Source of the DNA: a virus
Taxonomy: Duplodnaviria > Caudoviricetes
Direction: 5' to 3' (one strand)
IMG/VR virus record: IMGVR_UViG_3300036987_000048
Span: 1-41,114 of that record
Length of the DNA stretch: 41,114 bases
Part shown: piece after piece, positions 1 through 12,004 of the stretch
Position numbering within the stretch: position 1 is the first letter of the stretch
Layout: each line of letters begins with the position of its first letter
Translations under genes and position numbers: made by a program
The notes under the pieces: model-generated
Databases searched by the model: none
What the model saw: only the letters and a program-made list of their open reading frames with translations
Told to the model about the DNA's origin: nothing

Positions 1-191
1 ACGATACAATAATCAAACACATTTCATGCTCTGATTTTTGGCCTACATATAGAGAGGCAACAAAATTACGGATTGCTGTAAAAAAACGCAAACTAGCAGC
101 CGCAGCCCTGGGTTCCATCAGCACCACGAAGAAATCCGCCAGCTCCCGGGAAAACGGCACGAAGGGCGGGCGCCCCAAAAAAGTTTTATAA
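1..191 (+). CDS. 3' part of a small early gene that spans the contig junction (5' part at 40992-41114); C-terminal basic AT-hook-like tail
   Basis: Frame from base 3 reads DTIIKHISCSDFWPTYREATKLRIAVKKRKLAAAALGSISTTKKSASSRENGTKGGRPKKVL-stop (TAA 189-191). Bases 1-118 are identical to 37428-37545. Confidence 0.8.
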   Translation, partial: DTIIKHISCSDFWPTYREATKLRIAVKKRKLAAAALGSISTTKKSASSRENGTKGGRPKKVL

Positions 192-219
192 TCTAAAATA
201 TCTTCCATAATTTTCAAAC

Positions 220-249
220 GGGCCGGTTTTATACCGGCCTTTTATTTTT
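220..249 (+). terminator. Rho-independent terminator
   Basis: GGCCGGT-TTTAT-ACCGGCC stem-loop followed by a T-rich run; lies between converging genes. Confidence 0.7.
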
Positions 250-379
250 CCCACTTAGTCCCGTTTCTTCTCACGGTTTTTCTCCGGCTGTTGGCGCATT
301 CAGTGCAATATTTCTGCTGTTTCCCGGACTTCTTTTTAATCTCAACAGTCTCTCCGCATTTTTCACATATGATTGTCAT
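242..379 (-). CDS. 45-aa zinc-ribbon protein (not in ORF track)
   Basis: MTIICEKCGETVEIKKKSGKQQKYCTECANSRRK...; two CxxC motifs; its ATG overlaps the MTase TGA (ATGA coupling). Confidence 0.65.
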   Translation of the reverse strand: MTIICEKCGETVEIKKKSGKQQKYCTECANSRRKTVRRNGTKWEK

Positions 380-1545
380 CGGTGAACCTCACAAATTGCT
401 TTTATTATTTGAAAGGCTACGGCGGGAACAATCGCATTACCTAGAGCCTTTAGTCGGTTAACTCTGTCCAATTTTTGGGGTAGCCCATCATCCACTCGAC
501 AAAGGCGGGTTGCAACTTCAATCCACGGGATTCCCCAACTACTTCCCCTAGATTGCATTTCCCTCTGTCCTCCTTCGCATCCTTGTGCATAAATTGCCTC
601 GGTGTCGGGAGCATGGCAATCCTCGATGCATCCACAATATGTTCCTGTTGATTCGGTCTGCTGTTGGTGGGCAACAATCCACACCCTATCCCTTCTATGG
701 GGCGCGTTGACGGCGCAAGCTGGAAGACAGAACGTTTGTGTTTCATAGCCTTGATTTTCCAATTCAGTAAGCAAATAGTCGAATACCACGCCCTGCTCAA
801 GACTAAGGAGTCCAGCAACATTTTCAAGGATGCACCACCTTGGCTTGACTTCGGCAATGACTCTAAAAGTTTCTTCCCAGAGCCAACGGTCATCGTTATG
901 GCCTCCTCGCTTCCCGGCACAACTGGCTGGCTGGCAAGGAACCCCTGCTGTAAGAAGGAATATTGGTTCATTTTTCACCCCTTTGGTGAGGACAGGTTCC
1001 GTGGTGTGATCTTGCATTATTGCAGTTGTAACAGAGGATTTGATAGTCGTCTGGCAACCCTCTTTTGATTGCAAGTTTCCATGTTTGAGATTTGTATTTT
1101 CTGCGTTCCGCATTACCATTGTTGTATTTATGGTCGATTGTGAGGAACTCTCTTTGTGATTCTCCGCAACAAACGCATTTCCCTCCGTAGTGGGCAAAGA
1201 TTTCTTGTTTTTTCCTCTCGCAGTATTCTCTGCGACTTTTTCTGTGTCTTTCGATGTTTTGTTCTCTCCAAGCGGCAACTCGTTTTGTGTTACACGGTCT
1301 GCAATACGACTCATTAGGAGCGACTTCGCTTTCCCTACATTCTGGGCATATTCTAGCCATTGATCCTCCGGTGCATAATGAAATGTTTTAATGTCATCCC
1401 AAATCGGTACTCCCTTAAAATTTTTCTGTAAGACCTTCTGGCAGAAAGGGTCTATCTCAACAAACTGAACCGTCTTAATTCCGTTCCACCTTGCCGCTAA
1501 AGCAAAGCCGCCAATGCCGGAGAACAAATCAATATGCGTTCTCAT
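376..1545 (-). CDS. dcm: C5-cytosine DNA methyltransferase, alpha polypeptide, with ~135-aa insertion
   Basis: Motif I DLFSGIGG, IV GVPCQP, VI ENV, VIII HRRDRVWI and X LGNAIVP are present. A canonical motif IX is not evident in this frame. A long insert lies between DDIKTF and LTAGVPCQ. Confidence 0.92.
   Translation of the reverse strand: MRTHIDLFSGIGGFALAARWNGIKTVQFVEIDPFCQKVLQKNFKGVPIWDDIKTFHYAPEDQWLEYAQNVGKAKSLLMSRIADRVTQNELPLGENKTSKDTEKVAENTARGKNKKSLPTTEGNAFVAENHKESSSQSTINTTMVMRNAENTNLKHGNLQSKEGCQTTIKSSVTTAIMQDHTTEPVLTKGVKNEPIFLLTAGVPCQPASCAGKRGGHNDDRWLWEETFRVIAEVKPRWCILENVAGLLSLEQGVVFDYLLTELENQGYETQTFCLPACAVNAPHRRDRVWIVAHQQQTESTGTYCGCIEDCHAPDTEAIYAQGCEGGQREMQSRGSSWGIPWIEVATRLCRVDDGLPQKLDRVNRLKALGNAIVPAVAFQIIKAICEVHR
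450..971 (-). CDS. Putative MTase beta polypeptide (TRD/motif IX) in an alternative frame, EcoHK31I-beta-like
   Basis: Contains MLPTP and a C-terminal LQPAFVEWMMGYPKNWT resembling motif IX. Has an SD-like GGGGTG, and its ATG overlaps the HNH stop. Confidence 0.7.
   Translation of the reverse strand: MNQYSFLQQGFLASQPVVPGSEEAITMTVGSGKKLLESLPKSSQGGASLKMLLDSLVLSRAWYSTICLLNWKIKAMKHKRSVFQLAPSTRPIEGIGCGLLPTNSRPNQQEHIVDASRIAMLPTPRQFMHKDAKEDRGKCNLGEVVGESRGLKLQPAFVEWMMGYPKNWTELTD
968..1360 (-). CDS. HNH endonuclease nested inside the MTase gene
   Basis: N-terminal CxxC..CxxC, then CVCCG..LTIDH..N..QILCYNCN HNH core; GGAGG SD at 1365-1369. Confidence 0.85.
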   Translation of the reverse strand: MARICPECRESEVAPNESYCRPCNTKRVAAWREQNIERHRKSRREYCERKKQEIFAHYGGKCVCCGESQREFLTIDHKYNNGNAERRKYKSQTWKLAIKRGLPDDYQILCYNCNNARSHHGTCPHQRGEK

Positions 1546-1583
1546 CGCTTCACCTCGCCTCCAGTTGAATTCCCCTCATGATA

Positions 1584-2138
1584 TCACTGCAAAAGTTTTG
1601 TTTTATGATTAAAACCTATCTGAACAACTTCAATTTCTATTTCATGTCCGGTCTTGAAATTTTCCTGCTCACACGTCCCGACGAGGTAATCAGGATGTTT
1701 TCCCGCCCGCGCTGAAATAACGTCATAAAGTCGCTCAAACTCTTTCTGCTTCCACTTCTCTTCACTCTTTTCCATCATGCAAAGCTGTGGCCAACCACCC
1801 ATAGCGTTAATCACCGAATGAATGGCAGGATCATCAAACTTAACACTCTGATAATTTCCGATCCGAGCAACCGAATTTAAAACTTCCAGCCAGGCCAATG
1901 TAGCCTTATTCGCTTTCTTGCCTAGGAGAATATCCCGGAAATCTGCTGGCTTTGGGAAAAATTTATTTTCATAAATAATTTCTTTAAATGCCGCTTCACA
2001 CTCTTCATCGCTAAACGGCTCTAAAACTTTCCAGTATAAATCCGTCAGCAACTTCGACATGGTGCGGTCGTGAAGTTCACAAAGCGTTGCTAAATATTCC
2101 TTGAATTTAATTTCGTCTCTCATGCCGGAGGCCTCCAT
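1584..2138 (-). CDS. Replication-module protein (DUF6475-like / helicase-loader position)
   Basis: FFPKPADF motif and FDDPAIHSVINAMGGW segment; directly downstream of the initiator. Confidence 0.65.
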   Translation of the reverse strand: MEASGMRDEIKFKEYLATLCELHDRTMSKLLTDLYWKVLEPFSDEECEAAFKEIIYENKFFPKPADFRDILLGKKANKATLAWLEVLNSVARIGNYQSVKFDDPAIHSVINAMGGWPQLCMMEKSEEKWKQKEFERLYDVISARAGKHPDYLVGTCEQENFKTGHEIEIEVVQIGFNHKTKLLQ

Positions 2139-2869
2139 TCATCAAGCATTTTGACAGTTCTGATTGTTTTATCTGATACTTTTCCGGCGAGGGGGTGGGA
2201 TTCTGTTTCCTCATCTTCCCACCTTTTCCCATTTAACCACGTCGCCGGATATGGGATATATTTCCCTTTTTCTTTTATCCACTCAGCAGATGTTTTTGAC
2301 TTATTGATTACCTCAATGATTGTTTCTAATAACTCATTATCGGGATTCAGTTTCTTAAATGCTTTCTCTGCCTCTTTCTTTGCTTTCCTTTTAGGGTATG
2401 TTTTCCAGAACTTCAAAAACGCATCATTTATTTTATTTAGATCAGATAAAGATATAGGATAAGATTCCCCGCCATCCGGCGTGTCGTTTTCTCTTAACCG
2501 TCCATTAACCGTTAATAATCCGTTAAATGGTGGTAATAAACTTTCTTTCTCTGTGTTGTGTGGTGATTGATGTTTGTTAAATTCAGGAATATCTATATAA
2601 TTTCGGTTATTTACCGTATAGCGGCGAATAAAAACCTTTTCTGGTCGATCTTGAATTTTGGGGCAACAGAGCATATTTAGATATTTCTCTATGTTAATAT
2701 TGTCGTACGGGAAAATTTCAGCCTTTAAATATTTTGGCCTATCTTCTAACCTGCCCTCTCGATCTGCAAAACACCACATTCCCTGATAAAGCAATCTGGC
2801 CTCATAGGGTAGTGTCGCTAAATCTTCATCTTTAAAAAAGTCTGGTTTCAATGATCTTATTCTTGCCAT
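2120..2869 (-). CDS. Phage replication initiator (replisome organiser)
   Basis: MARIRSLKPDFF..ARLLYQGMWCFADREGR N-terminus and FWKTYPKRKAK..YPATWLNGKRWEDE C-terminus, typical of lambdoid initiators. Confidence 0.85.
   Translation of the reverse strand: MARIRSLKPDFFKDEDLATLPYEARLLYQGMWCFADREGRLEDRPKYLKAEIFPYDNINIEKYLNMLCCPKIQDRPEKVFIRRYTVNNRNYIDIPEFNKHQSPHNTEKESLLPPFNGLLTVNGRLRENDTPDGGESYPISLSDLNKINDAFLKFWKTYPKRKAKKEAEKAFKKLNPDNELLETIIEVINKSKTSAEWIKEKGKYIPYPATWLNGKRWEDEETESHPLAGKVSDKTIRTVKMLDEWRPPA
2493..2530. repeat. Short iteron-like repeats (TAACCGT/CCGTTAA) within the initiator gene; candidate origin
   Basis: cttaaccgtccattaaccgttaataatccgttaaatgg in the linker region of the initiator gene, where lambdoid origins lie. 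Confidence 0.45.
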
Positions 2870-2907
2870 TTTCTTCTCTTACTCTCCCTTTGAGTTCCCT
2901 AATTATT

Positions 2908-2960
2908 GGGCGGCAGGGCGATAGGGTGTCGCCTTTTCGGGTCATGTTCCCTAGCCGCCT
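2908..2960 (-). ncRNA. Structured cis-RNA element upstream of the replication gene
   Basis: Outer stem GGCGGC/GCCGCC encloses an inner GGCGA/TCGCC hairpin and a CCCGAAAAG segment; GC-rich island in an AT-rich context. Confidence 0.35.
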
Positions 2961-3343
2961 TGTGAATTAAATTTCTCCAACATAACTTTAAGCGTGATCT
3001 TCCAATTCTCTTTAAAAAACTGGTTATTTTTTACGATTTGATTTTTTCGTTCTGTTAATTCTTGAAGCCATCCTTCGGGTCTCTTTCCTGATTTAAGCCA
3101 TTTTTCTTTAAAGTCGGGGTCAAGGTGAGCCGCTTCGTTTCCGTTGGTATGGTGGATATGGCAGAGGCAAATCCCATTAAGGGGGTCATACCGGACAGAT
3201 TGATTTTTCTTATTGTAATAGTGGTGTGGGTGTAATTGCGTTGCGTTAACCGTACATCCGGGGTATTCGCATTTATAATTGGCTTGCTTTAGAACAGCTT
3301 CACGAAACATTTTTAAAAGGGTTGCGTCTGATACTTTTCTCAT
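2951..3343 (-). CDS. NinG-like HNH nuclease
   Basis: CEYPGC..HPHH..RYDPLNGICLCHIHH. Confidence 0.75.
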   Translation of the reverse strand: MRKVSDATLLKMFREAVLKQANYKCEYPGCTVNATQLHPHHYYNKKNQSVRYDPLNGICLCHIHHTNGNEAAHLDPDFKEKWLKSGKRPEGWLQELTERKNQIVKNNQFFKENWKITLKVMLEKFNSQGG

Positions 3344-3906
3344 TCGTCCACCCCCCTCGTTCCGTCAAAGCACTGAGCAACCAAATCGGTAGCGTCCATA
3401 GCCTCTAAATCAATATTTCGGGTATGCAGGGCTAGTTTGTTTCGCCAGTAAATCGCAAGATGAATAAATCCAAACTCCAAACACTTGATAATTCGTTTCG
3501 CGCCCAGCCGCTTAAATTCGGCCAGTAGCTTCTCTTTCCATTCCTGCCGGAAGGTCTGTTCGTCCACGGTGATAATCTGATTTGCTCGCCGGTGTACTTC
3601 TTGTGCCCATTCTTCTGTGCGGACGCCCGCCCTTATAATGGCCTGCCTGAATAATCTTGGCGATAAATGAGCGGATAATAAATTGCCTGTATGATGACCG
3701 GCGCAGAGATTTATGGCGCAAAAATAATCGTATTTTATTGCTGTATTTGTTCTCTTGGAAAACCAATGGTGGGGATCGCAGTCGGTGTTTTTGCATTCTG
3801 GAAATTCGCAATGGCCGCCGGCGCGGATGGAAACAATTTCGCGTAGAAGGTTATCCAGATATCGATCAGAAATACAACTCATTCGCCCCCCGGCTATGTC
3901 AGACAA
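3340..3906 (-). CDS. NinG-like HNH nuclease paralog (likely start 3882)
   Basis: CEFPEC..DPHH..KYDYFCAINLCAGHH; visibly similar to the adjacent gene. Confidence 0.7.
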   Translation of the reverse strand: MSDIAGGRMSCISDRYLDNLLREIVSIRAGGHCEFPECKNTDCDPHHWFSKRTNTAIKYDYFCAINLCAGHHTGNLLSAHLSPRLFRQAIIRAGVRTEEWAQEVHRRANQIITVDEQTFRQEWKEKLLAEFKRLGAKRIIKCLEFGFIHLAIYWRNKLALHTRNIDLEAMDATDLVAQCFDGTRGVDE

Positions 3907-3937
3907 AATGTATTACAAAAAATTTGACAAAAAAAAT

Positions 3938-4153
3938 TTATAATTTATCCATGTCAACTTTCGCTTGTGGGAAAAGAAACGCCATTAATGGAACTTTTCC
4001 CTCTGTCAATTCATGAAACTTTTTAGCATTCGCTGGCCGCAAAGGACGACCGTTATATGCTCTCCAAACTGTTGCATTTGAGCACTTTTTTTCATCAGCA
4101 AAAGCGTTGGGTGTGATTTTTTTATCATCCAGATATTTTTTGAATGTTTTCAT
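3938..4153 (-). CDS. cro: Cro-like HTH regulator
   Basis: 71-aa basic HTH; first gene of the leftward arm, divergent from the cI-like ORF. Confidence 0.7.
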   Translation of the reverse strand: MKTFKKYLDDKKITPNAFADEKKCSNATVWRAYNGRPLRPANAKKFHELTEGKVPLMAFLFPQAKVDMDKL

Positions 4154-4161
4154 GGAAAGGG

Positions 4162-4190
4162 ATTATTTCACAAGTGAAGATAAAAGTCAA
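4162..4190 (-). promoter_or_regulatory. sigma70 promoter for cro (probably leaderless mRNA)
   Basis: TTGACT (4190-4185), 17-nt spacer, AATAAT (4167-4162); the cro ATG at 4153 has no SD. Confidence 0.65.
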
Positions 4191-4444
4191 GGACAAATTT
4201 CCACTTATGGAGAGCGTATCCTTAGTTGAAAATGAATTGAATCGGCGCGGCTGGAATAAAGCCAGATTAGTTAAGGAATCTGGAATCAGTTCAAGGGCCG
4301 CAACCTGTTTTTTTCAAGATGGGAAAATCAACTCTGAAAATACTTTCCGAATTTTACATATATTTTACCCCCTTTTAGGCATTCCTGCAAGAAAAAATCT
4401 TCATATATGTAAAATATTTCTTGACAATGTTCTTCACTTATGAA
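4167..4444. promoter_or_regulatory. Repressor operators, consensus TTCA-N4-TGAA
   Basis: TTCACAAGTGAA 4167-4178, TCCACTTATGGA 4200-4211, TTCATATATGTA 4400-4411, TTCACTTATGAA 4433-4444; two lie in promoter spacers. Confidence 0.7.
4207..4443 (+). CDS. CI-like XRE HTH repressor, apparently C-terminally truncated
   Basis: RRGWNKARLVKESGISSRAATCFF HTH. No S24 peptidase domain; the last ~25 codons run through operator/promoter DNA. Confidence 0.55.
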   Translation: MESVSLVENELNRRGWNKARLVKESGISSRAATCFFQDGKINSENTFRILHIFYPLLGIPARKNLHICKIFLDNVLHL

Positions 4445-4449
4445 ATACT
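4421..4449 (+). promoter_or_regulatory. sigma70 promoter of the rightward early operon
   Basis: TTGACA 4421-4426, 17-nt spacer, AATACT 4444-4449. Confidence 0.7.
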
Positions 4450-4638
4450 TCCATCAAACAAAAGCCCGCTTATCTCTGGCGGTCGCAACACGAAGACGCA
4501 GAGAGTATCAACTGAAATAGAAGTCGTAGGTTGGGAGTGAAGCGGATGAGGAGGCGAAAGTGGAAATTATTTTTGCAACTGTAGTGGCGTCAATCATTGT
4601 CGCGGGCGGCGTTGTACTTTGCGGCGCAATCAGGAGGG

Positions 4639-4779
4639 ATGATGAAAGAAATAGACGTGATCGCTTTGGCGACGACGAAATTTAAGAGGCCTGTCCAGGC
4701 TGAGGAGATTGCCGGAATGGGCTTTGCCGTCTTCTGCCTGATCGTCGCTGGAATTTGTATCGTGCTGAGGTGGGTATGA
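4639..4779 (+). CDS. Small membrane protein
   Basis: GGAGGG SD before ATG 4639; C-terminal hydrophobic helix. Confidence 0.55.
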   Translation: MMKEIDVIALATTKFKRPVQAEEIAGMGFAVFCLIVAGICIVLRWV

Positions 4780-5036
4780 AAGCCTATTATAACGAGAGAA
4801 CACGGCGGCTAGAGTTCCGCGACGATTCAGGGATGGGCAGAAAAATCAAGTTCGTCATTCTTGCTCTTCCAGTTCTTTTTCTCATTATCGTTGCTCTACT
4901 TTTGGCCGTCGGCGTCACACCGGAGCCAGCGAAAAAGGCCGCGACTATCGAGATCAACGACACGCTGCACCACGGAATAGATAAGCGCGGGAACATTGTG
5001 TACGAAAACGAAACGCACGTATGCAGGATCAAATGA
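4776..5036 (+). CDS. Small membrane protein
   Basis: ATGA-coupled; one transmembrane segment. Confidence 0.6.
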   Translation: MKAYYNERTRRLEFRDDSGMGRKIKFVILALPVLFLIIVALLLAVGVTPEPAKKAATIEINDTLHHGIDKRGNIVYENETHVCRIK

Positions 5037-5332
5037 ATCAGTGGACTTTTGAAGATTGGCTGAAAGTCGCCCGGTATGAGGGACCGGTTGACCCGATGAT
5101 TGACTTCGACCGGCTGCAAGGACAGACGAAACGCATCCACGATTTAATGATTGATGGCGTTTGGCGGACACTGGCCGAGATCGAGGCTATTACCGGATAT
5201 CCGCAAGCGAGCGTGAGCGCACAACTCAGGCATTTGAAGAAGAGTCGCTTCGGCGGGCACATCTTAACTAAGCGCCGCCGATATGAAAACAAAGGTGTTT
5301 GGGAATATGAGCTTTTAGAAAGAAAATATTAG
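5033..5332 (+). CDS. Winged-HTH phage protein
   Basis: WRTLAEIEAITGYPQASVSAQLRHLKKSRFG HTH; ATGA-coupled start. Confidence 0.75.
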   Translation: MNQWTFEDWLKVARYEGPVDPMIDFDRLQGQTKRIHDLMIDGVWRTLAEIEAITGYPQASVSAQLRHLKKSRFGGHILTKRRRYENKGVWEYELLERKY

Positions 5333-5340
5333 GAGGAGCA

Positions 5341-5535
5341 ATGCCAGACGTTATTAGAGAGGGCACTAATCAGTACGGATATCCGACAATCGGCGTCTGC
5401 ACGGTTACTAAAAGCGGTGAGTTTTGGACTGATCGTAGTTTAAAATTTTGGCAAACCGTATTGGATAACATCGACCGCATACGGCAGATCGTTGACCGCC
5501 AGGAACATCCGCATGGACATGACGACAAATATTAA
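5341..5535 (+). CDS. Hypothetical protein
   Basis: AGGAGGAG SD; operon context. Confidence 0.7.
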   Translation: MPDVIREGTNQYGYPTIGVCTVTKSGEFWTDRSLKFWQTVLDNIDRIRQIVDRQEHPHGHDDKY

Positions 5536-5550
5536 AATCAGGAGGCCGAG

Positions 5551-5793
5551 GTGACACCCACTTATACAATTAAATATCAGGTTGATGAAAAAGAGTTTGA
5601 AGTTGACATCGAGGACGTTCTTTTAGGCAAAACCGGACTGTGCTTAGAGAAGCGAACCCTTGCCGATTATCGGGTGGTGGGTGTCGGTGATCGGGCAGAC
5701 GAAAGCACGATAGGACTGATGGAAACGATAATTAATCTTAACTTTGAAAACTTTGAAAAACAGGCAGTACAACAACTGATGGAGAGAGTATGA
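5551..5793 (+). CDS. Hypothetical protein
   Basis: AGGAGG SD, GTG start, overlaps next gene. Confidence 0.65.
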   Translation: MTPTYTIKYQVDEKEFEVDIEDVLLGKTGLCLEKRTLADYRVVGVGDRADESTIGLMETIINLNFENFEKQAVQQLMERV

Positions 5794-6524
5794 TCGAACA
5801 CGCTAAAGAATCGGGGCATTGGTATAAAAAAGACGGAACTCCGGCCTATACGATAATCGGGAAGAACGGCAAAGAGCGAAACACGACCTTGAGGGACGCA
5901 CGGAAAGAAAACCTTTTGCCAAGCGTGACCTCAATTATCAGACTTGCGGCGGCTCCGGGGCTTGAGAACTGGAAAGCACAGCAAGTCTTGATGTCGGCGT
6001 TGACCTCAGAACGAAAACCGGACGAAACGGAAGAACAGTACATAAGCCGGATTATTTCAGATGCGAACGAACAGTCTTTAAAGGCGAGGGAAAGAGGAAC
6101 TTTAATTCACGCCTATGTTCAGAGTGGCTTTGAGGGTGAAACACTAAACAGCGAGGCGTATAAATATTATTTATCAGCCAAAAACACGATTGAGGATGAC
6201 CTTAATGTAGAAATGGATTGGATATGTGAAATGCCATTCGCCGCAGATAGATACGGAGGAAAGATAGACCTACGAAGCCCCGAATACATTATCGACATCA
6301 AAACAACCGAAAAGGATTTAACGGAAATTAAAACATGGGACGAACACGCCATGCAGTTGGCCGCCTATCGTAGCGGTCAACAGAAATGCGGAATACTTTA
6401 TATCAACGTCAACACGGCAGAGTCAAAACTTATCTGGATTGATGAGGAAGAACTTCAAAAAGGTTGGAAGTGTTTTAATGCACTATTAGATTTTTATTAC
6501 GCAAAAACAGGACTAGGAGGATAA
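5790..6524 (+). CDS. PD-(D/E)xK exonuclease
   Basis: LPSVTSII..RGTLIH..E..YGGKIDL..IIDIKT..QLAAY motifs; adjacent to ERF. Confidence 0.85.
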   Translation: MIEHAKESGHWYKKDGTPAYTIIGKNGKERNTTLRDARKENLLPSVTSIIRLAAAPGLENWKAQQVLMSALTSERKPDETEEQYISRIISDANEQSLKARERGTLIHAYVQSGFEGETLNSEAYKYYLSAKNTIEDDLNVEMDWICEMPFAADRYGGKIDLRSPEYIIDIKTTEKDLTEIKTWDEHAMQLAAYRSGQQKCGILYINVNTAESKLIWIDEEELQKGWKCFNALLDFYYAKTGLGG

Positions 6525-6525
6525 T

Positions 6526-7263
6526 ATGGAAAACATAGCAGTTTATGAAGCAATTAACGCAGTTCAGGATGATATGGCGAAGGTTGGAATTTCCAAAGAT
6601 AAGAAGAACGTACAACAGGGATATAATTTCAGGGGCATTGATGATGTGTACGGCGCACTAGCACCGTTACTCGCTAAACATAAACTTTGCATTATCCCCT
6701 TTACCGTCAACCGGACGGTTACAGAAAGGACAACAAAATCCGGTGGCGCATTGTTTTATGTCACGGTTGATTGTGAGTTTCATTTTGTGTCTGCCGTTGA
6801 TGGCTCCAAGCATATCGCACGAACTTTCGGTGAAGCAATGGATTCGGGTGATAAGGCAACAAACAAAGCCATGAGTTCCGCTTATAAATATGCCGCATTT
6901 CAGACATTCTGTATTCCGGTTGACGTTGTTGACGCGGACGCTGAAACACATGAAGTAATACCCAAGGCCAAGAAAGACGTTAAGGAAACCGCGCCAGAAA
7001 AAAAGGCACAACCGGTTCCAGAGCCACAAGAAAACATCGTTGTTTTTTCTACACTTAAAGACATTCAAGTAAAATCAGGAAAGACAAACGGGAAGGATTG
7101 GAAACTCTTTACTCTGTTTACTGATACAGGCGACACCTACGGGACATTCGATGAAGCCACAGCAGACTTAGCAAGCTCCCTTATTAAAAGCGGTGATTTG
7201 GCGAAGATTGAGTTTTCCATGACCACAAAAGGCAATAAGCAGATCGTATCATTGGAGCAGTAA
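6526..7263 (+). CDS. erf: ERF-family single-strand annealing protein
   Basis: YNFRGIDDVY and GEAMDSGDKATNKAMSSAYKYA..FCIP motifs. Confidence 0.9.
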   Translation: MENIAVYEAINAVQDDMAKVGISKDKKNVQQGYNFRGIDDVYGALAPLLAKHKLCIIPFTVNRTVTERTTKSGGALFYVTVDCEFHFVSAVDGSKHIARTFGEAMDSGDKATNKAMSSAYKYAAFQTFCIPVDVVDADAETHEVIPKAKKDVKETAPEKKAQPVPEPQENIVVFSTLKDIQVKSGKTNGKDWKLFTLFTDTGDTYGTFDEATADLASSLIKSGDLAKIEFSMTTKGNKQIVSLEQ

Positions 7264-7656
7264 ATGAATCCAGTATTTACCGGCAGAATAGAAAAGGGCA
7301 AGTATATTCTCGATAACACGAACCGTTACCTTGTACAGGTCAGCAGACTTGAAGGGCAGAGAATTGAACTTGTATTAAGAAAAGAGAAAAGTCAGAGAAG
7401 CCTTAACCAGAACTCGTATTATCATGGTGTAGTTGTGGCGATACTTGCTGAATATTGCGGGTACGAGCCGGAAGAAATGCACGAAGCGTTAAAAGACAAG
7501 TTTCTTTCGGTGGGATTAGACGACCACGGCTTGAAGAAGATCAAAAGCACGACAAAGTTAAGCACAACTGAAATGGAAGATTACCTAGAAAAGATTAAAA
7601 GATGGGCGGCGACTGAACTGAATTGCTACATTCCAGATCCAAACGAGGCGATATGA
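7264..7656 (+). CDS. NinB/Orf-like recombination accessory protein
   Basis: RSLNQNSYYH..EEMHEALK..STTKLSTTEMEDYLEKI. Confidence 0.75.
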   Translation: MNPVFTGRIEKGKYILDNTNRYLVQVSRLEGQRIELVLRKEKSQRSLNQNSYYHGVVVAILAEYCGYEPEEMHEALKDKFLSVGLDDHGLKKIKSTTKLSTTEMEDYLEKIKRWAATELNCYIPDPNEAI

Positions 7657-8333
7657 ATATGTATAAAAAATGCACAAAATGTGGAGAGGAAAAACGACTA
7701 ACTGAATTTTTCATACGTAAAGACGGCGGAGATGGATATAGATCAAGCTGTAAAAAGTGTATGGCTACTGCTAAAAAAATATATGAAGTTTTAAATCGTG
7801 AATCTATTATAATCGCACGGAAAAAATATTACACAAACAATAAAGAAAAGATGCGAAAAGCAACTCAATTATGGATTAAAAACAATCCCGATAGAATAAA
7901 ACTCCTCCAAAAAAAATGGAATTTAGAAAATATTGATAAAAGACGTGAATATAGAAGAAAGGCTATGAGAAAAAAAAGACAATCAGTAAAGGGGAAATTA
8001 AACTCAAATATATGCATAGGGATCTGGCGTACTATACGTGGTACAAAATCAAATAGACACTGGTAGGTCTTGGTCGGATACACGATTGACCAACTAAAAG
8101 ACCATCTTGAAAAATTATTTACCAAAGAAATGACATGGGACAATTATGGAATTTTTTGGGAGATTGACCATAAAGTTCCTATTGCAGTATATAATTTTGA
8201 ACAGCCAGAAGATATAGATTTTAAATTATGTTGGTCACTGAAAAATTTACAACCACTGGAATGTTCTAAGAATAGAAGTAAGGGTGATAGCGTTGGAAAA
8301 CCATTTCAACCTTCATTGTGTATGTCTATATGA
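7653..8333 (+). pseudogene. HNH endonuclease interrupted by an in-frame TAG (8064-8066)
   Basis: ORFs 7623..8066 and 8070..8333 share a frame. Joined, they give CTKC..CKKC, a basic helix, RHW*VLVGYT..WEIDHKVP..CWSLKNLQPL..N. Confidence 0.8.
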
Positions 8334-8429
8334 AAAAATTTTGGCACAAACATAGCTGTCTGGTGTGCAAGACGTTGATTTACGCTCTTGACGAAAAGAG
8401 GCTCAATGAAGCGATTTTTGGAGGCTTAA

Positions 8430-8618
8430 ATGCAACAATTAACAGAGGAACAATGTGATAATTTCCGTAGGACTAGGGGAGATTTTAACAACATGGTTAA
8501 TACGATCTATCAAGCTGGTAGAATGAGCGCGGCGCAAGAGGCATATGATTGCGTGTTTAGTACGATAGATGAATCGAGATCGAGAATTGAAGAACATTTC
8601 GATTTCAAGGCTGATTAA
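8430..8618 (+). CDS. Hypothetical protein
   Basis: GGAGG SD; operon context. Confidence 0.65.
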   Translation: MQQLTEEQCDNFRRTRGDFNNMVNTIYQAGRMSAAQEAYDCVFSTIDESRSRIEEHFDFKAD

Positions 8619-8620
8619 TA

Positions 8621-8676
8621 ATATAACGAAAAAATCAGCCGAAGTGTAGCGCTCGGCTGGATTTACTTGGTTATCT
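8621..8676. mobile_element. attC-like recombination site 1 (56 bp)
   Basis: ATATAAC-gaaaa-AATCAGCCGA...TCGGCTG(G)ATT-tacttg-GTTATCT: AAC/GTT core sites, unpaired spacers, inner inverted repeat with one extrahelical base. Confidence 0.75.
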
Positions 8677-8698
8677 TAATATTTGAAAGGAGTAAATC

Positions 8699-9022
8699 AT
8701 GAGCTTGGATGTAATGCTGACGGAAGTAAAAGAATGCGAGATATTCAGCCAAAATATTACGCACAATCTTGGAGCAATGGCAGAAGAAGCAGGAATATAC
8801 AAACATTTATGGATACCTGAAGAAATAGGAATAACAACAGCTATTGACTTAATCCAACCACTTAAAGAAGGAGTTGCGTTAATGAAGAAGGAACCTGAGA
8901 GGTTTAAGAAATTTAACGCTTCTAATGGGTGGGGAATGTATGAAGATTTTGTTCCGTGGATTGAGCGATATATTGAAGCGTGTGAATTGAATCCGGGGTC
9001 AAAGGTAAGTGTTTCAAGATAA
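8699..9022 (+). CDS. Phage hypothetical protein (cassette A cargo)
   Basis: AAGGAG SD; NITHNL..MA..AGIY..NGWG motif; stop codon lies within the AGATAAC core site. Confidence 0.85.
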   Translation: MSLDVMLTEVKECEIFSQNITHNLGAMAEEAGIYKHLWIPEEIGITTAIDLIQPLKEGVALMKKEPERFKKFNASNGWGMYEDFVPWIERYIEACELNPGSKVSVSR

Positions 9023-9064
9023 CGCCGACATCAGCCGCTTGTCGGCTGCATGGAATTGTTAAGT
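9017..9064. mobile_element. attC-like recombination site 2 (48 bp)
   Basis: AGATAAC-gccga-CATCAGCCG-cttgt-CGGCTG(C)ATG-gaatt-GTTAAGT. Confidence 0.75.
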
Positions 9065-9087
9065 GGGTTTTAAATAAAGGAGTTTAA

Positions 9088-9327
9088 ATGAAATATCAAG
9101 ATGTTGTTAATTCGTGGAATGCTCAAGCCGATGAGTTTAATCAGTGGACTGAATTATGTTCAGAAGAGATGGTTGATTACGCCATTAAGTTAGAGCGTGA
9201 AAGATTATCATCTTTACTACAAAAGGCAGGGGCTACTATTCCCGCACCTCCTCCAACGGGGACAATAGAAGGTGCGATGAATATGGGCCTTTGCATTGCG
9301 TTGTCACTGGTAGATGATGACACTTAA
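9088..9327 (+). CDS. Hypothetical protein (cassette B cargo)
   Basis: AAGGAG SD; stop lies within CACTTAAC, the reverse complement of GTTAAGTG at 9058-9065. Confidence 0.75.
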   Translation: MKYQDVVNSWNAQADEFNQWTELCSEEMVDYAIKLERERLSSLLQKAGATIPAPPPTGTIEGAMNMGLCIALSLVDDDT

Positions 9328-9589
9328 CAATTAATATACCAAGTTGGTATTTTATTGGTGGGTGTGGAAAGTAGTTATAAATTAGTAGATTAGACAAGAA
9401 ATGAACTTATTACTTGAGAGGTATAAATTATGGCAATAATAATACAGAATTAAATGCCCAAAGTGTGCAGAATGGGAAAAAGATTTAAAAGATTTAATTG
9501 AACAAGAAAAAATAATTATCGAACAGGAAAAGGACAAGCGTTCTGCTCACCAAAGCGGGATGGTAACACACAATTAAGGTGGGGGAGAA

Positions 9590-9787
9590 ATGAAAGAGGA
9601 AAAGTTCATACCGGCAAGCGATGTCACTGATGAAGGTTCCTATAAAATTGATATGGGTGATGGTGACGGTACTTGGTTAGATATAACAGTGTATAAGCGT
9701 AAGGGGAAACTATTTCTGATTAATCCAGAGAACAACAAGGAATGTTGTTTAAAGGGAATACACGGATGGGTATTCCAAAAACTATGA
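9590..9787 (+). CDS. Hypothetical protein
   Basis: GGGGAG SD; operon context. Confidence 0.65.
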   Translation: MKEEKFIPASDVTDEGSYKIDMGDGDGTWLDITVYKRKGKLFLINPENNKECCLKGIHGWVFQKL

Positions 9788-9789
9788 AG

Positions 9790-10057
9790 GGAGGCAAGCC
9801 ATGAATGACCAAGATAAGAAACTTATATTTGATTATTTGAGGTGGGAATACTGGGCGTGGGGAATAAAAGATTTTAATGGTAATGACATTCTTGAAGCTG
9901 TTGGAATTATGGAAGAGATGGGAGACATGCCAGAGTTTGAATCGTTCTGTTTTTCAAACGCTGACAAGAAAAGAATTTCGCAGTTTTATACTTTTACTTA
10001 TCTTCTCAAAAACTTTTTCCAGCTTCTTGCTGATTGGTTGAAGGAGGCAAGCCATGA
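9790..10057 (+). repeat. 15-bp direct repeat GGAGGCAAGCCATGA at two consecutive gene starts
   Basis: Exact copies at 9790-9804 and 10043-10057. Confidence 0.8.
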
Positions 10058-10061
10058 GTGA
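9801..10061 (+). CDS. Hypothetical protein
   Basis: GGAGG SD. Confidence 0.7.
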   Translation: MNDQDKKLIFDYLRWEYWAWGIKDFNGNDILEAVGIMEEMGDMPEFESFCFSNADKKRISQFYTFTYLLKNFFQLLADWLKEASHE

Positions 10062-10413
10062 TAAAGAAATGACTGACGACCATATTAATAAACTGATTGC
10101 GGAGAAGCTGGGCTTAGGATTCCAGTATAGTAGAAAACCAATTATCTTCACCGAAAACGCAAAGGTGCTGCTAGGGGAATTGAAGGAGAAAGATTATAAA
10201 GATTACGGTAATTTTGTTAATAATTTGCCAGTAGAAATTCAATTATCTTACGACCGTGGTATGCTCTTACTTGATATTCACTATCATTTCGTTATAGAAT
10301 TTATAAATACTTATATCCTCAACCCTCGCCTGTTGTGTGAGAAGTATTTGGAGTGGGAGGGCAAGCAAATTTTTTGCGGTAAATGCGAAGCAAAAAGCGA
10401 AAACACTATCTAA
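10054..10413 (+). CDS. Hypothetical protein
   Basis: GGAGG SD; last clear gene of the rightward operon. Confidence 0.65.
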   Translation: MSDKEMTDDHINKLIAEKLGLGFQYSRKPIIFTENAKVLLGELKEKDYKDYGNFVNNLPVEIQLSYDRGMLLLDIHYHFVIEFINTYILNPRLLCEKYLEWEGKQIFCGKCEAKSENTI

Positions 10414-10576
10414 GATTTGGGAGTGGCTACACGCTCACGGCTACGACACAGAGGCAAAGATAATAGCCCTTATTAATGAGTATGCGGAGTTGATGGCGAG
10501 AGAAAAGGAGTAGTGTTTTAGATAACCCTAGCCAGTATCAACAGGTACAAGACAGCAGTTAGAAGCCAGGGTAGTT

Positions 10577-10795
10577 TCACTTCGTGGCCTTTTTAAAACA
10601 TTGAATCTGTGAGTCCAACATCAACTCGCAGTTGATAATCTCGTTTATGGCTTCCACAATAGACTTGTCGTCTGTGATGTAAACCTTATGACAAACAGGG
10701 TCGGAGCAATCAGCAACCGGCCTGACGTAAGTCTTAGCGCACCCGATTATTGTGACGCTCAACAATAGTATTAAGCAGATTGTAAAATTCTTCAT
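10577..10795 (-). CDS. o-spanin (Rz1-like lipoprotein)
   Basis: Signal peptide with IIG-C lipobox; overlaps the 3' end of the i-spanin. Confidence 0.75.
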   Translation of the reverse strand: MKNFTICLILLLSVTIIGCAKTYVRPVADCSDPVCHKVYITDDKSIVEAINEIINCELMLDSQIQCFKKATK

Positions 10796-11066
10796 TCTGG
10801 CACTTCCCTTGTATATTGGCTTCTTTGATTTTCTTGTTAATCTCGTCTGTGGTTAAACTGATTTTGGCTATTCTCTTTCCGTGGGCCTGGTTCTCTTTAA
10901 TCACCTGTTCATACTGTTTTAACTGGGCTTCTTTGAGGGAAATTATCTCTTTCTGATAGGTCGATTTAAGAGACATTATTTTCCAACCCAAACCTACGCA
11001 GATAAGTAAAAGTGATATGATTATAACCGTTTTCCAGTTTTTTAAGATGGACAATAAGATGGTCAT
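10734..11066 (-). CDS. i-spanin (Rz-like)
   Basis: N-terminal TM followed by coiled coil; in lysis cassette. Confidence 0.75.
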   Translation of the reverse strand: MTILLSILKNWKTVIIISLLLICVGLGWKIMSLKSTYQKEIISLKEAQLKQYEQVIKENQAHGKRIAKISLTTDEINKKIKEANIQGKCQNEEFYNLLNTIVERHNNRVR

Positions 11067-11296
11067 TTTCTTGCACCTATATCAAAAGGTTGTTCGGCGA
11101 ACTTCTGAATAGCTTTAGGCACAAAAGCACCGATTAAAAACGCCGTGAAGATGTAAAGTCCGGTGTAAGGGTCAGCCGGTGGCCTAATAAGAATTAACGC
11201 CGCCACAGCCACACTAGCTATAAAAGAGGCTATGCTCATAACCCTCATCGTTGAAGGATTGCCGTTATCGTCTGTAAGTACTTTTGCTTCCATCAT
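11063..11296 (-). CDS. Holin-like 2-TM protein
   Basis: Two hydrophobic helices; GNPSTMR motif; sits between endolysin and spanins. Confidence 0.65.
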   Translation of the reverse strand: MMEAKVLTDDNGNPSTMRVMSIASFIASVAVAALILIRPPADPYTGLYIFTAFLIGAFVPKAIQKFAEQPFDIGARK

Positions 11297-11301
11297 CCCT
11301 C

Positions 11302-11649
11302 CTAATAAAACCAGCAAGCCGTTACTGGAACGCCATCTTTCATTGAGTCCACATGAATAAATGTTTTCGCAACGCCAATTCTTGTAAATCCCGCCATGAT
11401 TAACCCGTAAATGATTTTCATTCTTTCGTAAGAATTGATTGCTTTTATATCAGCCGCTTTGCCCGATGTGTGGTTCCGAGATGTCGAGCCTACGTTTGAG
11501 TTATGAACTTCGCACCTATAACCAGAATTTATAATATAAGGCACACCGGAAATATCTCTTGCCCTATCGAGCCTTTCGAGAAAATGTGTATCAATCTCAT
11601 TCTCTCCGCAATGCTTACAGGCGAATTCTTCTCTCTTGAAGTGCTTCAT
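11302..11649 (-). CDS. Endolysin, peptidase M15 family
   Basis: EFACKHCG..SGYRC..HN..H..GKAAD..FIHVD. Confidence 0.92.
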   Translation of the reverse strand: MKHFKREEFACKHCGENEIDTHFLERLDRARDISGVPYIINSGYRCEVHNSNVGSTSRNHTSGKAADIKAINSYERMKIIYGLIMAGFTRIGVAKTFIHVDSMKDGVPVTACWFY

Positions 11650-11656
11650 CTGTCTC

Positions 11657-11917
11657 TCATTTTGTTATGTGGTTTATGATGATAGCCATAATAATACCAC
11701 CAGCCCCGATGACGGTCGCCCAAAGCCCCAAAATATTCTGGCCTTGAATAATCACCCTCTCACACATACCTTTTTTGCCGTTCCCAAAGAGGATTTTATT
11801 AATAGCAATCAAGTCATTTCTATTAGCAAAGGCAATCTTCACTAAAAAAGTCAGCTTGTCACTATCGCTCATTTTTCCTATTTCGGCTTCATTGAGTTCA
11901 ACTTTCACAGAGTCCAT
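11657..11917 (-). CDS. Membrane protein with C-terminal TM (holin/antiholin-like)
   Basis: LFGNGKKG then a hydrophobic C-terminus; upstream of the endolysin. Confidence 0.6.
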   Translation of the reverse strand: MDSVKVELNEAEIGKMSDSDKLTFLVKIAFANRNDLIAINKILFGNGKKGMCERVIIQGQNILGLWATVIGAGGIIMAIIINHITK

Positions 11918-12004
11918 TTGACATTTTCCCCTTTTTCCTTTATTTTACTTTGGGCGGTGGCATTTTCCCTTGTGCCGGTCTGTGGTAGCAGACAGCCGCC
12001 CCCC

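What the first reader, a model, noticed from the sequence alone, without database searches (positions are those of the whole stretch)
8627..9327. Cassette polarity appears inverted: attC lies 5' of the cargo gene, and an empty target site can be reconstructed
Seen: on the gene (+) strand the extra base is in the right arm of both sites, and there are two full sites for two cassettes with only a bare core at the right end. On the minus strand, site 2 reads AAC-AATTC-CAT(G)CAGCCG..CGGCTG-ATG-TCGGC-GTT, with the extra base 4th in the left arm as in classical attC. That reading gives two complete units, 8627-9022 and 9023-9327, inserted into an AT-rich site ..TAATAATATAA|CAATTAATATACC.. Inference: the genes are antisense to canonical cassette polarity, which aligns them with phage early transcription, and the right end (9322-9355) is an attI-like or secondary entry site.
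Basis: partly seen in the sequence, partly recalled or inferred. Interest (0 to 1): 0.7.

Follow-up and report, generated by a model that had tools for sequence, protein, structure and literature searches.

The report
Phage shuffles backwards integron cassettes
This phage carries a copy of a bacterial integron's docking site and two gene cassettes written on the opposite strand to bacterial ones, and natural variants of it have the cassettes re-ordered and a third one added exactly at the predicted cut points, likely by a host enzyme that the recovered phage sequence does not encode.

Summary
Confirmed and extended. Both hairpins (8621-8676, 9017-9064) fit attC grammar only on the minus strand, so both genes are antisense to normal polarity. 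Assembled public runs show three natural junctions, each in two studies: left flank to unit 2, unit 2 to unit 1, and unit 1 to a third attC-led 557-bp unit ending at the right-hand site. All break at or beside AA|C, as inverse polarity predicts (396 bp skipped; canonical predicts 388). The right end is neither a decayed attC nor a chance site: its 22-bp core occurs 160-200 bp from bacterial intI genes and in 33 of 301 genomes of a Smithellaceae-containing order, where the following genes are canonical. Five other viral contigs carry the core with inverse genes. With one attC pattern, viral sites score 37 inverse to 10 canonical, bacterial sites 3 to 37. No integrase in the 81%-complete genome. 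The empty junction was not found. The enzyme and strand choice are inferred, not assayed. This scan found inverted phage cassettes before on other DNA; the host-identical attI plus natural re-ordering is what this locus adds.

The parts
8621..8676 (-). attC site 1 (top strand = minus; recombining strand = gene strand); extra base at 8659/8660; crossover between 8626 and 8627
   Evidence: 79-93% matches in genomes of the candidate host order; joint 9324 to 8624 in runs X3 and X4
8627..9022 (.). Cassette unit 1 (396 bp): attC1 first, then gene 1 on the plus strand
   Evidence: joint skipping exactly 396 bp in runs X2 and X3
8699..9022 (+). Gene 1, 107 aa, phage family phrog_4019 of unknown function; its TAA stop is the AA of the next crossover
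9017..9064 (-). attC site 2, 48 bp with a 5-nt loop; extra base at 9049; crossover between 9022 and 9023
   Evidence: near-identical sites in other viral contigs
9023..9327 (.). Cassette unit 2 (305 bp): attC2 first, then gene 2 on the plus strand
   Evidence: moved to the left end of the array in run X3 and joined to unit 1 in X3 and X4
9088..9327 (+). Gene 2, 79 aa, no family found; its TAA stop is the AA of the attI crossover
9322..9347 (-). attI core, crossover G|TT between 9328 and 9327; 9326-9347 is identical to the sequence beside bacterial intI genes
9348..9420 (.). Non-coding tail of the platform, partly conserved among six phage copies and different from the bacterial tail; role unknown

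Best explanation
The phage carries an integrase-less integron platform, an attI core identical to a bacterial one plus cassettes whose genes are antisense to their attC, and its natural variants differ by re-ordering and by gain or loss of whole cassettes at the AA|C points, likely catalysed in trans by the host's IntI. Each mobile unit is attC-then-gene on the coding strand, and the gene's TAA stop supplies the AA of the next crossover. The coding strand is predicted to be the hairpin strand that IntI cuts. The attI faces against the rightward gene block, so only antisense-built cassettes would be read by the phage's rightward transcription, and new ones would enter at the far end of that block rather than next to a promoter (inferred). 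The host is likely a member of the order that holds Smithellaceae (Syntrophales by recalled GTDB taxonomy).
For: SHOWN. Minus-strand-only attC grammar, above chance. Joints 8622>9019 (X2, X3; ambiguity 6 nt), 9324>8624 (X3, X4; ambiguity 4 nt) and 9025>9320 with 546 other letters (X2, X3). One 593-nt contig of X3 reads left flank, unit 2, unit 1. The third unit starts with 30 letters nearly identical to a minus-strand attC of phage locus L299 and is 557 bp. Canonical excision would remove 388 bp; 396 is seen. The 22-nt core is exact in 34 metagenome loci; three of their neighbours score 411-424 bits on TIGR02249, cut-off 265. intI or a remnant begins 160-198 nt away in 7 of 54 metagenome and genome loci, 4 of them full length. 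33 of 301 genomes of the order hold the core with at most 1 mismatch; reversed control 0. After the core, 25 of 34 metagenome loci have a canonical gene, 1 an inverse gene (the same phage as L299), 8 none or a short flank. Five other viral contigs have a sense gene ending at the core; four have minus-strand attCs, none a plus-strand one. Host-order relatives of site 1: 11 canonical, 0 inverse, 3 uncalled of 14. Survey: viral 37 inverse, 10 canonical, 5 both, 31 neither of 83; bacterial 3, 37, 2, 36 of 78. No TIGR02249 match in G000 and no integrase among 48 ORFs scanned. INFERRED: the enzyme, the host, the recombining strand, the transcription direction.
Against: No recombination or expression assay. 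G000 is 81% complete, so a phage recombinase could lie in the missing part. The phage encodes Erf-like, exonuclease and NinB proteins that could recombine short homologies. The joints come from assembled contigs at depth 2-9, and the studies are all of 2020 and may be one campaign; the full order in X2 is unresolved. Site 1 has 6/5 spacers. The empty site was not found. 47 of 54 metagenome and genome loci with the core have no intI in the fetched flank, so the core is more often orphan than intI-linked. No direct host link: gene 1 was not found in 302 genomes of the order, and eight prophage-like regions there held neither the core nor an attC.
Confidence: 0.78

Rival explanations
1. Same inverse cassettes and attI, but moved by a phage-encoded tyrosine recombinase in the part of the genome that was not recovered, or supplied by a co-infecting element.
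For: G000 is linear and 81% complete. Unchecked scan notes on other phages mention relatives with their own Xer/IntI-type recombinase.
Against: The core is identical to that beside bacterial IntI genes. The platform's flanks in this phage (9348-10500) and in L299 and L364 hold small early genes or an ATPase-like ORF, and tblastn found no intI beside any of five viral copies.
Confidence: 0.1
2. The platform was captured from a host integron once, and present variation comes from the phage's own annealing proteins or replication slippage at the short shared sequences, not from IntI.
For: Erf-like, exonuclease and NinB genes lie 1-3 kb upstream. Sites 1 and 2 share 17 of 22 nt.
Against: The joints share only 4-6 nt and bracket AA|C. 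Re-ordering of two intact units and gain of a third attC-led unit at attI are what an integrase gives; slippage gives deletions or duplications.
Confidence: 0.07
3. The re-ordered junctions are assembly or library artefacts, and the array is a frozen relic.
For: Only contigs at low depth were available; site 1 resembles high-copy attC sites of other organisms in the same runs.
Against: Each junction appears in two runs of different studies, with 58-210 letters on the short side in five of six cases and 30 in one; the shared letters at the joints are far shorter than an assembly word.
Confidence: 0.03
4. Conventional gene-then-attC polarity, with a third attC at 9322 that has decayed.
For: Both stops lie in TAAC, as in canonical cassettes; 9328-9357 can form a weak hairpin (-5.1 kcal/mol); site 1's spacers are 5/6 when read on the plus strand.
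Against: The extra bases are on the wrong arm; the observed skip is 396 bp at AA|C, not 388 bp at G|TT; the right end is a conserved attI core in bacteria and in five other viral contigs.
Confidence: 0.02

Closest known systems
Phage-borne CALINs (clusters of attC sites lacking an integron-integrase), Qi et al. 2023, PMC9892861 (parts 2 and 4 of 7 and searched passages read; supplements and figures not seen)
   Same: attC-bounded small genes in a phage genome without intI; those attC sites were shown to recombine with IntI1, bottom strand better than top.
   Different: The passages I read describe typical array structure and mention no antisense cargo; attI is named only for temperate phages with captured integrons; capture is put down to off-target or illegitimate recombination. 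Here the cargo is antisense, a host-type attI is present and natural re-ordering is seen.
Sedentary chromosomal integrons of the order holding Smithellaceae (loci L371, L379, L386, L412)
   Same: Identical 22-nt attI core; same attC family as site 1.
   Different: They have intI (some copies) and canonical gene-then-attC cassettes; the phage has no intI in the recovered sequence, inverse cassettes, phage-type cargo and another tail behind the core.
Cassette insertion in opposite orientation by top-strand recombination, Nivina et al. 2016, PMC5027507 (passages read)
   Same: Gives a gene that faces away from the integron promoter.
   Different: That flips a normal cassette as a whole and leaves the extra base on the left arm of the gene strand. 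Here the extra base is on the right arm, so the cassette itself is built in mirror form.
attG secondary sites, bioRxiv 10.1101/2022.09.11.507474 (passages read)
   Same: Insertion at a short GWT core outside integrons; the left end of this array fits GWT.
   Different: The right end here is a conserved 22-nt attI core, not a bare GWT site.

Membership tests
attC site | R'' RYYYAAC and R' GTTRRRY boxes, complementary | tested here: met
   Minus-strand boxes of both sites; each unit's core complements its own R''
attC site | L''/L' boxes, 5 and 5-6 nt spacers, extra-helical base 4th in L'' | tested here: met
   Site 2 is exact; site 1 has the extra base but 6/5 spacers, a form also seen in host-order sites
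attC site | Bottom strand folds more stably and is the recombining strand | tested here: inconclusive
   Plus strand folds lower: -11.2 vs -8.8 and -8.2 vs -7.8 kcal/mol; natural junctions fit plus-strand AA|C; no assay
attI site | Core GTTRRRY with conserved upstream sequence, variable downstream, at the head of an array | tested here: met
   47 distinct bacterial copies conserve the 22-nt core and vary beyond the crossover; third unit sits next to it
attI site | Recombined by the cognate IntI as double-stranded DNA | not testable with these tools
   Needs an assay
Complete integron | intI gene next to attI | tested here: not met
   No TIGR02249 match in G000, 81% complete; met in bacterial loci with the same core
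Complete integron | Pc promoter reading through attI into the cassette genes | tested here: not met
   Genes face towards attI; promoter-like matches did not exceed chance, 6 found vs 4.5 expected
Canonical gene cassette | Gene on the attC top strand, followed by its attC | tested here: not met
   Both genes are on the bottom strand and follow their attC
CALIN | Two or more attC sites without a nearby integrase | tested here: met
   Two sites, no intI; the attI is an addition to that definition

The most novel reading that the evidence does not exclude
Phages of these anaerobic bacteria keep a working, mirror-image integron that parasitises the host's integrase. They mimic the host's attI, build cassettes from their own genes on the opposite strand, and shuffle them within living populations. 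Polarity acts as a firewall: host cassettes, defence genes included, would be silent if they entered the phage array, and phage cassettes would be silent in the host array. Because any gene ending in TAAC offers a core site on its antisense strand, these arrays may also show cassettes being made from resident genes.
Probability: 0.45. Interest if true: 0.88.

Novelty: new variant of a known kind. Interest (0 to 1): 0.76.

Why it matters
Integrons are treated as host devices, recently as stores of anti-phage genes (search listings only). Here a phage holds the host-type docking site and same-family attC sites without the enzyme, and is caught in several cassette orders. It supplies all parts for a direct test: a named attI, two attC sites and cognate IntI genes with the same core. 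The mirror polarity also means that tools which assume gene-then-attC would mis-assign such cassettes. Gene 1's family occurs in 49 viral loci, 4 of them directly behind an inverse attC and 41 with no site of stem 6 or more within the fetched flank, which offers a comparative handle on how cassettes arise or are domesticated, a long-open question (recalled).

Tried and rejected
Empty junction: 0 exact matches in viral contigs; no such joint in X1-X4. Decayed third attC: rejected. Third cassette's gene: not recovered; a 29-nt search from the matching L299 site found only that contig, and the 546 letters are not printed by the tool. Gene 1 in the candidate host order: 0 of 302 genomes, with no positive control. 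The attI core in five genomes picked by title: 0 of 5. Eight prophage-like regions of that order: no attI core, no attC. The 16-nt core search gave 68 viral loci and the core-plus-tail search 61; five contigs were judged real (sense ORF ending at the site plus tail or attC) and the rest were treated as chance. Promoter scan: not above chance. Cargo function: no Pfam or NCBIfam family for either gene; Atlas hits for gene 1 are unnamed viral clusters. Literature: seven searches listed no paper whose title or abstract start describes antisense phage cassettes or a phage-borne host-type attI; the library lacks most subscription papers, and I did not see the supplements of PMC9892861, which may show gene orientation in its arrays.

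Full report
CONTEXT. The window is a whole 41,114-base virus record, linear and 81% complete. It encodes terminase, portal, major head protein, endolysin, replication initiator, Erf-like annealing protein, exonuclease and NinB; none of 48 ORFs scanned matched an integrase family, and the integron-integrase model found nothing. The finding lies in a rightward block of small genes (about 4600-10500). The best holders among public runs are groundwater and coal metagenomes.

OBSERVATION. A grammar scan (AAC, spacer, three pairs, one extra base, stem, spacer, GTT) finds site 2 on the minus strand with 5/5 spacers and site 1 on the minus strand with 6/5 spacers. With a stem of 6 or more these are the only two hits in the window; 60 shuffles average 0.05 and none reaches two. 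On the gene strand the extra base lies on the arm opposite the AAC. PMC5027507 (passages) describes that geometry as the recombining bottom strand and reports that bottom strands fold more stably; the gene strand folds lower here at both sites. Both genes end with TAA as the AA of an AA|C crossover.

NATURAL REARRANGEMENTS. Contigs of four runs were laid on 7600-10400. X1 matches the window and may be its source. The others show: a joint 8622 to 9019 skipping 396 bp (X2, X3); a joint 9324 back to 8624 (X3, X4); and a joint 9025 to 9320 with 546 other letters (X2, X3). The shared letters at the first two joints are 6 and 4 and include AA|C. Canonical polarity would cut at G|TT at 8670 and 9058 and move 388 bp. 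One 593-nt contig of X3 reads left flank, unit 2, start of unit 1, so the units are swapped, not merely lost. A second X3 contig runs from the end of unit 1 through a 557-bp unit into the right-hand site. The first 30 unknown letters of that unit nearly match a minus-strand attC in viral locus L299, so the third unit also starts with its attC. X2 also holds the window's unit 1 to unit 2 junction at depth 3.4, so at least two arrangements coexist there; its full order cannot be read. Limits: contigs only, depth 2-9, studies of one year.

THE RIGHT END IS AN attI. The only viral relative of gene 2 found (L299) is followed by the same right-hand sequence and preceded by several minus-strand attCs with other genes. 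The 22 bases 9326-9347 match exactly in 34 metagenome loci. Three of these have a 430-436-aa ORF starting 160-165 nt away, pointing away from the cassettes, that passes the integron-integrase cut-off. Over 54 metagenome and genome loci, intI or a remnant is adjacent in 7 (4 full length); the other 47 show none in the fetched flank. In 47 distinct bacterial copies the core is conserved and the sequence beyond the crossover varies with a RYYY bias, as at the head of an array. The first gene after the crossover is canonical in 25 of 34 metagenome loci, inverse in 1 (the L299 phage) and uncalled in 8; in 20 genome loci it is canonical in 15, inverse in 1 (L402, not examined) and uncalled in 4. The core occurs with at most one mismatch in 33 of 301 genomes of the order of G002, whose record names Smithellaceae; the reversed control gave 0. 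Of 302 genomes of that order, 109 match 1-12000 of the window, most listed rows at site 1, and 14 such attCs read 11 canonical, 0 inverse, 3 uncalled. Five other viral contigs carry the core (15-22 nt) with a sense gene ending at it and a shared tail; four have minus-strand attCs and none has a plus-strand one.

GENERALITY. Of 83 viral sites, a gene stop near the box called 37 inverse, 10 canonical, 5 both, 31 neither; of 78 genome sites, 3, 37, 2 and 36. Purine skew gave 65/14/4 and 14/41/23 (inverse, canonical, ambiguous). Among 49 viral loci with a gene 1 relative, 8 have sites with a stem of 6 or more, 12 sites in all, every one on the minus strand; two stem-5 hits (one plus, one minus) were set aside as doubtful. 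In 4 loci the site ends 17-38 nt before the gene.

MECHANISM. Shown: inverse architecture, unit limits, mobility of whole units at AA|C, identity of the core with the one beside bacterial intI, absence of intI from the recovered phage sequence. Inferred: the host's IntI acts in trans on the folded coding strand and on the phage attI; the host belongs to the Smithellaceae-containing order; rightward phage transcription reads the genes, so only mirror-built cassettes would be expressed and new ones would enter at the far end of the gene block. Speculative: polarity keeps host and phage cassette pools apart, and TAAC stops seed new cassettes. Against: see Best explanation; the main gaps are the missing 19% of the genome, the phage's own annealing genes and the lack of a direct host link.

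COMPARISON AND NOVELTY. It works like an integron without its enzyme and meets the CALIN definition, but it fails the canonical-cassette and complete-integron tests. Qi et al. 2023 (PMC9892861; parts 2 and 4 of 7 and passages) showed functional attC sites in phages; the text I read does not mention antisense cargo or host-type attI in integrase-less phages, and I did not see its supplements. Seven literature searches listed nothing closer. This scan's notes report inverted phage cassettes in at least 8 other genomes and one phage with a docking site and a one-cassette difference; those notes are unchecked and are not counted as support. Verdict: a real, active new variant of the integron system; interest 0.76.

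Noticed in passing
L368-L421 (bacterial loci with the attI core): Most bacterial copies of this attI have canonical cassettes but no intI in the fetched flank, and some genomes hold 2-3 copies: orphan attI platforms seem common in this order.
   Followed up: partly
window 9400-9420; L300, L305, L321, L360, L364: A short motif about 80 nt behind the crossover (ACTTAT, two bases, CTT) is shared by all six phage platforms and absent from the bacterial consensus. Role unknown: promoter element or protein-binding site.
   Followed up: partly
window 9320-9327: The third unit in X2 and X3 ends with the same 8 letters as unit 2, five more than the crossover requires. Unexplained.
   Followed up: no
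proteins P0002, P0005, P0006, P0007, P0009: Relatives of gene 2 share its first 33-48 residues almost exactly and then carry deletions or a different C-terminus, while L299 shares only the C-terminus: a mosaic or rapidly rearranging cargo gene.
   Followed up: no
window 9790-9819 and 10043-10072: A 30-nt direct repeat over two gene starts; runs X2 and X3 show a joint 9809 to 10047 (letters between not known), so a second variable region lies right of the array, likely by homology rather than attC.
   Followed up: no
window 7623-8333: An HNH/endonuclease VII-like gene split by a stop at 8064-8066; run X3 has a loose end at 8366 and no cover to the left, so it may lack this gene.
   Followed up: no
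L002:4175-4254, L018:1906-2003: In some other phages the gene starts inside the long inverse attC, which then encodes its first residues.
   Followed up: no
L083, L090, L096, L097, L364: Several inverse units next to site-2-like attCs or the attI core encode proteins that look like DNA methyltransferases by their first residues (my recall, no family search).
   Followed up: no
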